Positions 57,706 through 59,463 of a stretch of 64,000 nucleotides of DNA are shown one piece after another (position 1 is the first letter of the stretch; each line of letters begins with the position of its first letter). A program made the position numbers and the translations under genes. Location of the stretch: NCBI RefSeq assembly GCF_988242995.1, contig NZ_OZ547043.1. One strand, 5' to 3'. Below the pieces are notes generated by a model. The model worked only from the letters and a program-made list of their open reading frames with translations, was not told where the DNA came from and did no database searches.

Positions 57706-58560
57706 ACTTAGATGTCCGTCTATATCAGATGGGCGTCTAAGTTACCAATTTTCGTCTGATGGCTACATACGGCGGTCAGTTTACGCTTACGTCTATAACG
57801 CGTGTGGGAAATCATTTTTTCTGGCGTTGACAGAACGCCTTACGGGCTGCTACTTACCCGGTGTCCCGCAATACAGCCTTAGTGTTCCGTTATCGGGGAT
57901 CCGGACGCACCGCAACAACCGGGGAAGTATTTCTGGTTAGAGCTGTGTCAAGAGGGATTTCTCAGCCCCTCACTCACCGGCTCAGTCTCAGGGCAGAAGC
58001 ATTAATACACTCAGTTCATGTCTTATACAGGAATGGGCATAGGGGGAGCTGGCGTGTCACTGCTGATTTTACGCATCAGCGTTCATGTATCTGCACTCTG
58101 ATACAGAATGCTTCACAGCGCTCTGTTACCGGAGAGATTTACTCTCTTAGGTTATTCTGGCAAATCCTTTACGTTACTCTCTGATGACTTCTTATATTTA
58201 TAATACCAATCAGACAACCTTATCCCATCGGTGATATCAGTCTCCTGCTCGCCAGGAACGGGCTGACTCACTGTAACCACCTCCGAAAACAACTCTGCAA
58301 TTATCAGAACGCCTGCTTCTCTCCCTGTCCTCACGAAAACTATCCCCTCTTTATCGCGCGTGCGTGCGGAAGCATCTTTTCGCAACACCCCCCTCCGGGA
58401 TTCCGCTACGGCTCTGCCATCGCAATCCCCCCGTTTATCTCCGGACAGCCACATTCCCGATTATTTTTTACGTTTCTCCCCGGTTGTTATGCCGGTGAAG
58501 GTGGCGCGCTGTTTTCATGACCACACCGGCTGGTTTAACAACATCCGGAGGAACATTCTC

Positions 58561-58767
58561 ATGGCTACCCCAGTTTCGCTGATGGATGACCAGATGGTCG
58601 ACATGGCGTTTATCACTCAACTGACCGGCCTAACCGATAAGTGGTTTGACAAACTCATCAAAGATGGGGGCTTTCCTGCGCCCATCAAAATGGGGCGCAG
58701 CTCCCGCTGGCTGAAAAGTGAAGTGGAAGCCTGGCTGCAGGCGCGTATTGCACAGTCCCGTCCGTAA
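58561..58767 (+). CDS. alpA: AlpA-family prophage transcriptional regulator (excisionase-like)
   Basis: MATPVSLMDDQMVDMAFITQLTGLTDKWFDKLIKDGGFPAPIKMGRSSRWLKSEVEAWLQARIAQSRP; start trimmed from the longer ORF. Confidence 0.85.
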   Translation: MATPVSLMDDQMVDMAFITQLTGLTDKWFDKLIKDGGFPAPIKMGRSSRWLKSEVEAWLQARIAQSRP

Positions 58768-58845
58768 TTTTTAACCACTAACCCTTCGCCCACAGCAGAC
58801 GCAATCTCCGGCCTGCCGGCGGCGCTCTGCTGCCTGTTATCCCCC

Positions 58846-59463
58846 GTGAGGAATATGAAAATGAAACAACAGTATCAGACCCGTTACGAGCTGCTCCATG
58901 AAAACTACCAGAAATGGCTGACCGGCTTCACCCGGCACGCCGTATCATGGGGCGTGTGTCATCCGAATATCTACTATTTCCATAATCTGACGCCCGGGTG
59001 GGTGTCATTCAATGGCGAAAAACCGGAGATTGCCATCGTTCCCCAGAGTCTGCACCGGCTGATTTATGGTCCGGACAAACGGAGCTCCCCGTCCCTAGAT
59101 GATGATCTGGTGGTGAATTTATGCACCAGCGAACACCTGCTGGTTCATCATCCGATGCTGGAAGGGATCCTGCTGTCTGAATGTGAACGCCTGAAGCAAC
59201 ATTCTCTGGCAAACAAACTGATCAGCCTCTTCCGTCAGTTTGGCGGCACGGAGTTACGTCTCAAACTGGTCTGGCTCTGCTGGCTTGACTTAATGACCGG
59301 AAACAGCCTTGACGACTGGACGAAAAACCTGAAACACAAATCAGAAAAAGATCTGGAGCAATGGATCATTGCACGTCAGGGTCAGAGTGAACCACTGACA
59401 AATCTGATGGATCAGTACGTGCTTATGGCATACCGTACATCGGTTGATGCCGCTCACAGTTGA
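58846..59463 (+). CDS. Hypothetical protein of a P4/CP4-like island (unknown function)
   Basis: 205-aa ORF 78 bp downstream of alpA on the same strand; no recognisable motifs. Confidence 0.55.
   Translation: MRNMKMKQQYQTRYELLHENYQKWLTGFTRHAVSWGVCHPNIYYFHNLTPGWVSFNGEKPEIAIVPQSLHRLIYGPDKRSSPSLDDDLVVNLCTSEHLLVHHPMLEGILLSECERLKQHSLANKLISLFRQFGGTELRLKLVWLCWLDLMTGNSLDDWTKNLKHKSEKDLEQWIIARQGQSEPLTNLMDQYVLMAYRTSVDAAHS

What the first reader, a model, noticed from the sequence alone, without database searches (positions are those of the whole stretch)
57791..59463. AlpA regulator plus unknown 205-aa protein isolated between the IS66 copies
alpA-type regulators normally sit at the regulatory end of P4/CP4-like islands, controlling excision or downstream cargo. 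Here alpA is preceded by about 770 bp of non-coding DNA and followed 78 bp later by a 205-aa protein with no recognisable motif. The pair may be an uncharacterised regulatory/effector unit cut off from its integrase.
Basis: partly seen in the sequence, partly recalled or inferred. Interest (0 to 1): 0.45.

Follow-up and report, generated by a model that had tools for sequence, protein, structure and literature searches.

The report
Conserved alpA–orf200 island control operon
The AlpA gene and the unknown 200-residue gene after it are a real, tightly linked gene pair that forms part of the core of a very common family of enterobacterial genomic islands; this copy is intact but stranded without an integrase, and what the second protein does is still unknown.

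Summary
alpA (58561-58767, +) is followed by an intact ORF ending at 59463. Both lie between two IS66-family elements.

- **Gene start:** the comparative start is ATG 58861, giving 200 aa and a 93-nt spacer, not GTG 58846 (205 aa, 78 nt).
- **IS elements:** both are simple insertions with intact 8-bp target duplications. The first split an hha-like pseudogene.
- **The pair is not a local oddity:**
  - It covers ≥80% of its length in 3334 of 5426 complete E. coli genomes, almost always on the chromosome.
  - AlpA sits 65-146 nt upstream of an orf200-family gene in nearly all 24 species-level loci of Enterobacterales.
  - The neighbours are a YfjJ/Gp2-like Rep gene, a YeeP-type GTPase backbone and variable cargo (BREX, Dnd, type I RM, T6SS). 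A P4-type integrase lies at the far end.
- **orf200 (UniProt name "Aec62"):**
  - Median dN/dS is 0.09, and there are paralogous subfamilies.
  - It has no Pfam, NCBIfam, PHROG, PADLOC, PDB or viral-structure relative.
- **Spacer hairpin:** the spacer carries a conserved RNA hairpin with compensatory changes. It is found once per locus.

Best reading: this is the control operon of CP4-44/CP4-57-type islands, stranded here without an integrase. The function of orf200 is inferred, not shown. Interest is modest.

The parts
58561..58767 (+). alpA: 68-aa AlpA/excisionase-family winged-helix DNA-binding protein. First gene of the pair.
   Evidence: Pfam PF05930 E=1.8e-5 and HTH_17 E=1.9e-4. PHROG 66 E=7e-9. 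61-82% identical orthologues lie upstream of orf200-family genes in other genera. Shine-Dalgarno GGAGG at 58550-58554.
58861..59463 (+). orf200 ('Aec62' family; WP_000813432.1): a soluble 23-kDa protein, mostly alpha-helical, of unknown function. Second gene of the pair.
   Evidence: 187 homologues. Invariant GxLxSECxRL and LLCW motifs across subfamilies. dN/dS 0.09. AF2 pLDDT 71, pTM 0.68, showing helices plus one beta-hairpin. No family or fold match. GRAVY -0.4 and no TM segment.
58793..58832 (+). Conserved nested RNA hairpin in the alpA-orf200 spacer. Outer stem CAGCAGA/TCTGCTG, inner stem CCGG/CCGG.
   Evidence: MFE fold. RNAalifold gives 13 pairs. 93.8% of cells are paired against 25-54% for slid controls, and 5 pairs change on both sides (0/500 shuffles). 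The covariance model hits once per locus, only in this spacer, in 25 loci (E<=1.5e-4), 9 of them not used to build it. No Rfam match.
58464..58560 (+). Conserved alpA promoter/leader block. It contains an invariant TTTTTTAC motif and an inverted repeat CCGG...CCGG overlapping the alpA Shine-Dalgarno.
   Evidence: Alignment of the 250 bp upstream of alpA from 16 loci of different genera. Between E. coli lineages, nucleotide homology starts at 58193.
57791..58463 (.). Lineage-specific remainder of the divergent Rep-alpA intergenic region. It includes the first codons of an hha-like pseudogene (57799-57821, minus strand) split by the IS.
   Evidence: tblastn with the IS removed restores residues 2-46 of the Hha-like fragment. 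PGAP annotates an Hha/YmoA pseudogene at the equivalent place in ST131. No similarity to other genera. No Rfam hit.
55259..57790 (-). IS66-family element (ISEc43-like; tnpA-tnpB-tnpC). A simple insertion into the Rep-alpA divergent region.
   Evidence: Terminal GTAAGCG inverted repeats and the 8-bp target duplication GTCTATAA. Annotation of the identical S88 sequence.
60381..62816 (-). Second, different IS66-family element. A simple insertion into an IS21 remnant downstream of orf200.
   Evidence: GTAAGCG termini and the 8-bp target duplication AGAGAATG. Annotation.
59464..60380 (.). DNA downstream of orf200. In uninterrupted E. coli islands a convergent DUF3987 (YfjI-like) gene lies here; in the window it is absent and replaced by unrelated DNA ending in an IS21 fragment.
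   Evidence: Homology to the uninterrupted island L042 stops at 59447. There is no DUF3987 hit in the window. An IS21 pseudogene is annotated in ST131 at the equivalent place.
53925..54530 (-). YagK/YfjJ-type 'inovirus Gp2 family' Rep-like gene, the third member of the conserved module. It is divergent from alpA. It is followed at 52866-53665 (minus strand) by two Zn-ribbon (DUF7828/Zn_ribbon_11) genes.
   Evidence: PGAP annotation. 36% identical to K-12 YfjJ. PHROG 25019 E=6.5e-41. Same layout in uninterrupted E. coli islands.

Best explanation
alpA-orf200 is the conserved two-gene control operon of a widespread family of integrative islands of Enterobacterales. This is the CP4-44/CP4-57-like family of defence-island mobile elements, which encode a P4-type integrase, an AlpA-like excisionase and a small HUH/Gp2-like Rep protein.

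SHOWN:
- The two genes are co-oriented and almost always adjacent.
- They are preceded by a conserved leader and separated by a conserved RNA hairpin.
- They sit next to the Rep-like gene at the border between the conserved backbone (YeeP-type GTPase ... DUF932, ArdB, RadC, CbeA/CbtA) and variable cargo.
- orf200 is a soluble, mostly helical protein under strong purifying selection. It has paralogous subfamilies and no detectable relative outside this island family.

INFERRED:
- AlpA acts as the island's recombination-directionality factor and/or transcription regulator, as AlpA does for intA in CP4-57.
- orf200 is co-expressed with AlpA, at a level set by the spacer hairpin (attenuation, processing or translational control).
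- orf200 acts as an island-specific accessory factor in the excision/replication/transfer decision, together with AlpA and the Rep-like protein.

In this window the operon is an intact copy in a decayed island. It has no integrase, the Rep gene is separated from it by an IS, and the neighbouring DUF3987 gene is lost. It can therefore at most act in trans on other islands of the same family.
For: Linkage: AlpA lies 65-146 nt upstream of an orf200-family gene on the same strand in nearly all species-level loci and in the distant subfamilies.

Prevalence: the pair covers >=80% of its length in 3334 of 5426 complete E. coli genomes, with 6510 chromosomal places against 3 on plasmids. It is absent from phage genomes.

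Neighbourhood: unbiased clustering of neighbours finds the GTPase in 22 of 30 loci and two Gp2/Rep clusters in 17 loci each. Cargo differs between islands: BREX, Dnd, type I RM, T6SS. IntA-like integrases lie 9-10 kb downstream in L024, L032, L038 and L014.

Selection: dN/dS 0.09.

Hairpin. Many G-U pairs point to an RNA on the sense strand.

Conserved leader.

Literature: this island class, with AlpA-like excisionase, HUH Rep, and a RadC/ArdB/CbtA 'moron' module opposite the integrase, is described in PMC12458937. Analogous Pseudomonas islands with intY, alpA and a Gp2-like gene are described in 10.1101/2024.08.29.610337.
Against: - The AF2 model has only moderate confidence. It superposes poorly on AFDB models of near-identical proteins (TM about 0.46), so the domain arrangement is uncertain.
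- Co-transcription of the two genes is inferred from spacing and orientation only. The consensus scan found no sigma-70-like promoter in 57700-60450.
- The window AlpA is only remotely similar to characterised AlpA proteins: 33% over 30 aa to K-12 AlpA, and E=0.06-0.1 to PDB entries.
- Adjacency to excision/replication genes is also compatible with a moron or an addiction gene.
Confidence: 0.5

Rival explanations
1. Regulator plus payload. AlpA controls orf200, and orf200 is a moron-type effector such as an anti-defence factor, a host-physiology modulator or a phage-interference factor. It would not be part of the island's own life-cycle machinery.
For: The pair lies at the edge of the variable cargo or defence hotspot. 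These islands carry other small anti-restriction and host-modulating genes (ArdB, RadC, CbtA; PMC12458937). The family has diversified into paralogous subfamilies, sometimes in tandem, as counter-defence genes often do.
Against: orf200 is present regardless of cargo type and always keeps its position after alpA, unlike variable cargo. There is no PADLOC or PHROG hit for any subfamily. dN/dS of 0.09 shows no sign of an arms race.
Confidence: 0.2
2. Addiction or toxin-antitoxin-like pair. The small HTH protein (AlpA-like) would neutralise or repress a toxic orf200 product. This would explain why the pair survives intact in an island otherwise riddled with IS elements.
For: The architecture is a small DNA-binding protein followed by a larger partner. 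The pair is 100% conserved in many strains, while neighbouring genes are pseudogenes or IS elements. In L033 both genes appear damaged together.
Against: A 93-nt structured spacer is atypical for type II TA operons. There is no toxin domain and no PADLOC or NCBIfam TA match. The islands already carry the CbtA/CbeA TA pair. AlpA-family proteins are excisionase/regulator-type, not known antitoxins.
Confidence: 0.1
3. AlpA-type antitermination switch. As for P. aeruginosa AlpA and alpBCDE, AlpA would load onto RNA polymerase and allow read-through of the spacer hairpin into orf200 and the genes beyond.
For: The precedent is an AlpA-family protein encoded immediately upstream of an operon guarded by an intrinsic terminator (PMC7969949, PMC9371919). 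A conserved hairpin lies exactly between alpA and orf200. In most non-E. coli loci it overlaps a GGTTTTCT tract. The K-12 alpA-yfjI spacer also has a strong hairpin.
Against: The E. coli version has no U-tract, and the scan does not call it a terminator. No ABE-like motif (GGGACGN5GGTA) occurs within 58193-58900 at <=2 mismatches. The solved P. aeruginosa AlpA was not among the PDB matches at E<=1. The 93-nt spacer leaves little room for a separate promoter.
Confidence: 0.15

Closest known systems
E. coli K-12 cryptic prophage CP4-57 module intA-yfjH-alpA-yfjI-yfjJ (AlpA activates intA and excision)
   Same: An AlpA-family gene leads a short co-oriented block that includes a YfjJ/Gp2-like Rep gene (36% identity to the window's). 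A hairpin follows alpA. The same backbone lies further on: GTPase, antirestriction, RadC, CbtA-like TA.
   Different: In CP4-57 the gene after alpA is yfjI (DUF3987, 469 aa), not an orf200-family gene. In CP4-57 alpA lies next to the integrase; here it is 9-10 kb from it (relatives) or has none (window). The two AlpA proteins are barely alignable. In uninterrupted E. coli relatives a DUF3987 gene is present but convergent downstream of orf200.
Uncharacterised defence-island MGEs of E. coli and relatives (PMC12458937), and the tmRNA-targeting Pseudomonas islands I23/I44/I55 (10.1101/2024.08.29.610337)
   Same: Integrase at one end, an AlpA-like excisionase, a small HUH/Gp2-like Rep, RadC/ArdB/CbtA-type accessory genes and large variable defence cargo. 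The related loci fetched here match this description.
   Different: Neither paper, in the passages read, mentions the orf200 family or the spacer hairpin. The family was found only in Enterobacterales. The window copy is a decayed, integrase-less remnant.
Pseudomonas aeruginosa AlpA antiterminator controlling alpBCDE (PMC7969949, PMC9371919)
   Same: A small Phage_AlpA-family protein is encoded directly upstream of its target genes, with an RNA hairpin between them.
   Different: There is no ABE motif, no canonical terminator in E. coli, and no detectable similarity to the solved protein. The downstream gene is unrelated to alpBCDE.
Satellite phage P4 Vis/AlpA-type excisionase-regulators (from general knowledge, not tested here)
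   Same: A small winged-helix excisionase/regulator in an element with a P4-type integrase.
   Different: These islands carry no sid/psu/delta capsid-redirection genes or alpha primase. No orf200 homologue was found in 50,697 phage records apart from one unannotated 3.6-kb fragment.

Membership tests
Phage_AlpA / excisionase-type HTH (PF05930, HTH_17) | Significant match to the family profile | tested here: met
   PF05930 E=1.8e-5 (24.9 bits) and PF12728 E=1.9e-4. PHROG 66 E=7e-9. The NCBIfam excisionase models score below cut-off.
Phage_AlpA / excisionase-type HTH (PF05930, HTH_17) | Small (about 60-75 aa) single-domain protein encoded in an integrative element with a tyrosine integrase | tested here: inconclusive
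   The size criterion is met (68 aa). Orthologous loci carry a P4/IntA-type integrase. The window's island has none.
Phage_AlpA / excisionase-type HTH (PF05930, HTH_17) | Promotes excision or activates integrase expression | not testable with these tools
   Needs excision assays.
AlpA-type processive antiterminator (P. aeruginosa) | AlpA-binding element GGGACGN5GGTA inside the target promoter | tested here: not met
   No match with <=2 mismatches in 58193-58900.
AlpA-type processive antiterminator (P. aeruginosa) | Intrinsic terminator between promoter and first target gene | tested here: inconclusive
   A conserved hairpin is present. It has no U-tract in E. coli and is not called by the terminator scan. 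Other genera have a weak GGUUUUCU tail.
CP4-57-type alpA-yfjI-yfjJ module | alpA followed by a DUF3987 (YfjI) gene and then a YfjJ-like gene on the same strand | tested here: not met
   An orf200-family gene follows alpA. There is no DUF3987 homologue in the window. The YfjJ-like gene is divergent and upstream.
Defence-island MGE class with integrase + AlpA + HUH Rep + RadC/ArdB/CbtA module (PMC12458937) | Co-occurrence of AlpA-like excisionase, Gp2/HUH Rep and the RadC/ArdB/CbeA-CbtA block | tested here: met
   Window and S88 island: Gp2, alpA ... DUF932, antirestriction, yeeS (RadC-like), cbeA/cbtA. The same co-occurrence is seen in other genera.
Defence-island MGE class with integrase + AlpA + HUH Rep + RadC/ArdB/CbtA module (PMC12458937) | Site-specific integrase and flanking direct repeats at a tRNA/tmRNA gene | tested here: not met
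   No integrase lies in the island remnant next to cobU. Direct repeats were not searched for. The copy is therefore a degraded member.
Type II toxin-antitoxin pair | Recognisable toxin/antitoxin domains and tightly coupled (overlapping or <30 nt) genes | tested here: not met
   No TA or defence family hit. The spacer is 93 nt and structured.

The most novel reading that the evidence does not exclude
orf200 could be a so-far unrecognised master switch of this very common island family. One possibility is a sensor or anti-repressor that couples helper-phage infection or another signal to AlpA-driven excision and Rep-driven replication. Its synthesis would be gated by a new structured RNA element (the spacer hairpin), through AlpA-dependent read-through or through processing.
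Probability: 0.12. Interest if true: 0.7.

Novelty: new variant of a known kind. Interest (0 to 1): 0.33.

Why it matters
CP4-44/CP4-57-type islands carry a large share of the anti-phage defence systems, adhesins and toxin-antitoxin genes of E. coli, Klebsiella, Salmonella and Yersinia. How they excise, replicate and move is still unknown.

The alpA-orf200 pair is present in about 61% of complete E. coli genomes, usually in two or more copies. It sits beside the putative excisionase and Rep genes. That makes orf200 one of the few invariant and completely unannotated core genes of these elements, and a cheap, well-defined target for knock-out and over-expression tests of island mobility.

The spacer hairpin is a small, specific candidate cis-regulatory RNA that is not in Rfam.

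For this particular window the biology is ordinary. It is an intact relic inside a decayed island peppered with IS elements.

Tried and rejected
- **Family and fold assignment of orf200.** Nothing was found.
  - Sequence libraries: Pfam on the single sequence and on all 18 members of A2, NCBIfam, PHROGs for 9 members of all subfamilies, PADLOC, and a PDB profile search.
  - An HMM search of 1.84 billion representative proteins found only 125 hits, all family members or fragments.
  - hhalign of the family profile against 618 neighbouring ORFs gave no remote relation to any other island gene.
- **Inversion or deletion by the two IS66 copies.** Rejected. The two elements are different, both have intact target duplications, and the uninterrupted islands have the same gene order.
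- **The spacer hairpin as a double-stranded palindromic operator or a Rep nick site.** Disfavoured, because many positions are G-U pairs on the sense strand only, and because the motif stays between alpA and orf200 wherever the Rep gene lies.
- **Shared operator words between the alpA leader and the spacer.** None are consistent across loci.
- **RNAalifold on all 23 spacers, including distant subfamilies.** They do each fold into a hairpin at the same place.
- **Assumption that the window is E. coli S88.** Wrong. Only 46190-64000 matches S88 at 99.8%, and the first 24 kb are core genes, not the HPI.
- **Literature searches** for Aec62 and for the WP accessions found nothing relevant.
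Full report
**Where the window comes from.** The 2-kb region around the finding is 100% identical to E. coli S88, MS7163 and many avian and human ExPEC chromosomes. The window as a whole is not S88. Window 46190-64000 matches S88 at 99.8% and 29372-44284 at about 98%. The first 24 kb are core genes (fliK, dgcQ, dcm, hprS), best matched at 99.6% by pig and cattle isolates. I use the S88 annotation only for 46190-64000. The finding lies in the CP4-44-like island remnant that follows cobU.

**Checking the observation.**
- alpA is at 58561-58767 (+), 68 aa. It matches Pfam Phage_AlpA at E=1.8e-5 and PHROG 66 at E=7e-9.
- The next ORF runs to 59463. The mechanical ORF starts at GTG 58846 (205 aa). 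The comparative alignment of spacers, the GAGGA 8 nt upstream, and PGAP all favour ATG 58861. That gives 200 aa and a 93-nt spacer.
- The left IS (ISEc43-like) spans 55259-57790, with an 8-bp target duplication GTCTATAA. The right one, a different IS66-family member, spans 60381-62816, with the duplication AGAGAATG.
- Both are therefore simple insertions.
- Removing the left IS in silico restores an hha-like pseudogene fragment on the minus strand. PGAP annotates that fragment in ST131.

**Is the 200-aa ORF a gene?** Yes.
- It has 187 homologues at E<=1e-3, in Escherichia, Salmonella, Klebsiella, Enterobacter, Citrobacter, Yersinia, Serratia, Hafnia, Pantoea and others. Identity is 57-64% outside E. 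coli.
- The conserved motifs are striking: HHPMLEGxLLSECxRLKQ and ELRLKLVWLCWYDLMLGN.
- Median pairwise dN/dS over 119 informative pairs is 0.09.
- A profile search of 1.84 billion representative proteins found only 125 hits. These include more distant full-length subfamilies of about 175, 191 and 195 aa.
- Residues invariant across all subfamilies include Y16, Q17, G102, L104, S106, E107, C108, R110, L111, C140 and W141.
- Some islands carry two paralogues in tandem. The 175-aa protein between AlpA and the 198-aa protein in Yersinia (L002) matches the family profile at 99.4% probability. L014 has a 191-aa plus 174-aa pair. L021 has a second copy further downstream.

**What the protein looks like.**
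- It is soluble: GRAVY -0.4, no hydrophobic segment, pI 6.6.
- AF2 with a 33-sequence alignment gives pLDDT 71 and pTM 0.68. The model has a long N-terminal helix, a beta-hairpin and a short helix, followed by a six-helix C-terminal part.
- No library recognises it. There is no hit in Pfam (including every member of A2), NCBIfam, PHROGs for all subfamilies, PADLOC or a PDB sequence profile.
- AFDB50 returns only the family itself. It appears as 'Aec62' (an ORF name from an APEC island) and under evidently spurious names such as 'malate transporter' and 'secretoglobin family protein'.
- TM-scores to AFDB models of near-identical proteins are low, so the inter-domain packing of my model is unreliable.
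- hhalign against 618 neighbouring ORFs shows no remote kinship with any other island gene.

**Genomic context.** This is the informative part.
- In distant homologues the picture repeats.
  - On one strand lies a backbone: CbtA/CbeA, RadC, ArdB-type antirestriction, DUF932, IrmA, YfjS/YafY, a YeeP-type GTPase and a roughly 300-aa protein.
  - Divergent from it lies AlpA, then the orf200-family gene(s). A YagK/YfjJ 'inovirus Gp2' Rep-like gene lies just before alpA or just after orf200.
  - Variable cargo follows: BREX in Klebsiella L004, Dnd in Pantoea L005, type I RM plus HNH in L014, LlaJI-type and SNF2 genes in L011-13, T6SS in Yersinia L002.
  - A P4/IntA-type integrase lies at the far end.
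- A scan of one genome per species gave 24 loci.
  - Where upstream sequence exists, AlpA is upstream and co-oriented in all of them. The spacer is 65-146 nt in all but one.
  - In L039, Zn-ribbon genes intervene between alpA and the F gene.
  - Among the distant subfamilies, L008 also has intervening Zn-ribbon genes, and in L011-13 alpA is divergent.
- Unbiased clustering of neighbouring ORFs confirms the GTPase (22 of 30 loci) and the Rep-like genes (two clusters, 17 loci each) as the commonest neighbours.
- In E. coli the uninterrupted arrangement (a 90%-identical allele, L042-47) is:
  - two Zn-ribbon genes and Gp2 on the minus strand;
  - a divergent region of about 1.65 kb with small ORFs and the hha fragment;
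  - alpA and orf200 on the plus strand;
  - a convergent DUF3987 (YfjI-like) gene;
  - then the GTPase, an Ag43-like autotransporter and yeeR.
- The window has the same order. It adds the IS in the divergent region and lacks the DUF3987 gene. Homology to L042 stops at 59447, and the window has no DUF3987 hit.
- The pair covers >=80% of its length in 3334 of 5426 complete E. coli genomes, with a median of 2 and up to 6 places per genome. There are 6510 chromosomal places against 3 on plasmids.
- It is essentially absent from phage records and from genuine plasmids.

**Cis elements.**
- About 100 bp upstream of alpA is conserved across genera and retained in the window (58464-58560). It includes an invariant TTTTTTAC and an inverted repeat overlapping the Shine-Dalgarno. 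The rest of the '770 bp' is lineage-specific.
- The alpA-orf200 spacer contains a nested hairpin at window 58793-58832.
  - On 16 spacers from different genera, RNAalifold predicts 13 pairs.
  - 93.8% of cells are paired, against 25-54% when the 3' partners are slid. Five pairs change on both sides (0 of 500 shuffles). G-U pairs are frequent. This argues for an RNA on the sense strand.
  - The 16 sequences are related, so the shuffle control overstates significance. The slid control and the next two points are more telling.
  - Spacers of distant subfamilies do not align, yet they fold into a hairpin at the same place (L005, L034, L036, L002).
  - A covariance model built from the 16 finds exactly one hit per locus. 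The hit is always in this spacer and on this strand. It is found in 25 loci, 9 of which were not used for building, and nowhere else in 670 kb.
- Rfam has no match.
- The hairpin is not a canonical terminator in E. coli: it has no U-tract and is not called. In other genera it overlaps GGUUUUCU.
- The CP4-57 alpA-yfjI spacer of K-12 also carries a strong hairpin.

**Interpretation.**
- The island class is known. A recent preprint describes E. coli defence islands as uncharacterised MGEs with a prophage-like integrase, an AlpA-like excisionase, an HUH Rep, and a RadC/ArdB/CbtA module opposite the integrase (PMC12458937). Analogous Pseudomonas islands with intY, alpA and a Gp2-like gene are mobilised by a jumbo phage (10.1101/2024.08.29.610337).
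- Within that frame, alpA-orf200 is the conserved control operon next to the Rep gene. orf200 is an invariant, family-specific core gene rather than cargo.
- I infer, but cannot show, that it acts with AlpA and Rep in the excision/replication/transfer decision, and that the hairpin tunes its expression.
- Three rivals remain:
  - a regulator-plus-moron unit;
  - an addiction pair;
  - an AlpA-type antitermination switch, as in P. aeruginosa (PMC7969949).
- For the antitermination rival, the ABE motif is absent. The window's AlpA shows no detectable similarity to the solved antiterminator and only marginal similarity to K-12 AlpA.

**Verdict.**
The pair is a conserved, uncharacterised unit, and it is stranded without an integrase. 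It is not an 'effector' by any evidence, and the IS elements did not isolate it by rearrangement.
- It is a new variant (alpA plus an orphan family, in place of alpA-yfjI) of a known kind of island module.
- This copy is an ordinary relic. The gene family and the hairpin are modestly interesting because of their prevalence and their complete lack of annotation.

Noticed in passing
window 58793-58832 (and one hit per locus in L002-L042): A conserved nested RNA hairpin lies in the alpA-orf200 spacer. It has compensatory changes and G-U pairs, is absent from Rfam, and is found only at this position in 25 loci. Its role (attenuator, processing site or translational control) is unexplained.
   Followed up: yes
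window 55150-55258 and 57799-57821 (minus strand): An hha/ymoA-like pseudogene fragment is split by the ISEc43-like insertion. It is restored when the IS and one target-duplication copy are removed.
   Followed up: yes
window 55259-57790; L007 about 9590-12096; L041 about 12392-15000: The Rep-alpA divergent region carries IS66-family insertions in at least three lineages. In ST131 the insertion is about 390 bp further left. In strain 510016 a different IS66 member lies in the opposite orientation at apparently the same site. ST131 also has an ISEc20 insertion just upstream of alpA. This may be an insertion hot spot.
   Followed up: partly
window 26626-27748: tRNA-Asn (asnT, 26626-26701) is followed directly by a frameshifted P4/IntA-type integrase pseudogene (about 26861-27748, 31% identical to IntA). 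An IS1 insB-like ORF follows at 27759-28262 (minus strand). This is the remnant of an island at the usual HPI site, and the strain lacks the yersiniabactin island that S88 has there.
   Followed up: partly
window 52866-53665 (minus strand) and 54694-54894 (+): Two tandem Zn-ribbon (DUF7828/Zn_ribbon_11) genes follow the Gp2-like gene. A 67-aa zinc-ribbon plus transmembrane-tail ORF is divergent from it. The Zn-ribbon pair recurs in other genera, next to a UCP030791 gene and a second orf200-family paralogue (L008, L021, L027).
   Followed up: partly
protein P0129: A 319-aa database protein fuses the N-terminal part of the island's phosphotriesterase-related protein to residues 97-200 of orf200. 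A deletion joining the two genes in some strain would explain it.
   Followed up: no
L025 and L031: Contigs labelled as Clostridiales and Bacillota MAGs carry this enterobacterial island with 83-98% identical backbone proteins. Binning contamination is the most likely cause.
   Followed up: no
S88 locus L001 26602-33292 (beyond the window's end): Downstream of the second IS, the island carries a GTPase, a dynamin-family protein, an RdcB-family protein and a patatin-like phospholipase in a row. This gene set looks like a defence or membrane-remodelling system.
   Followed up: no
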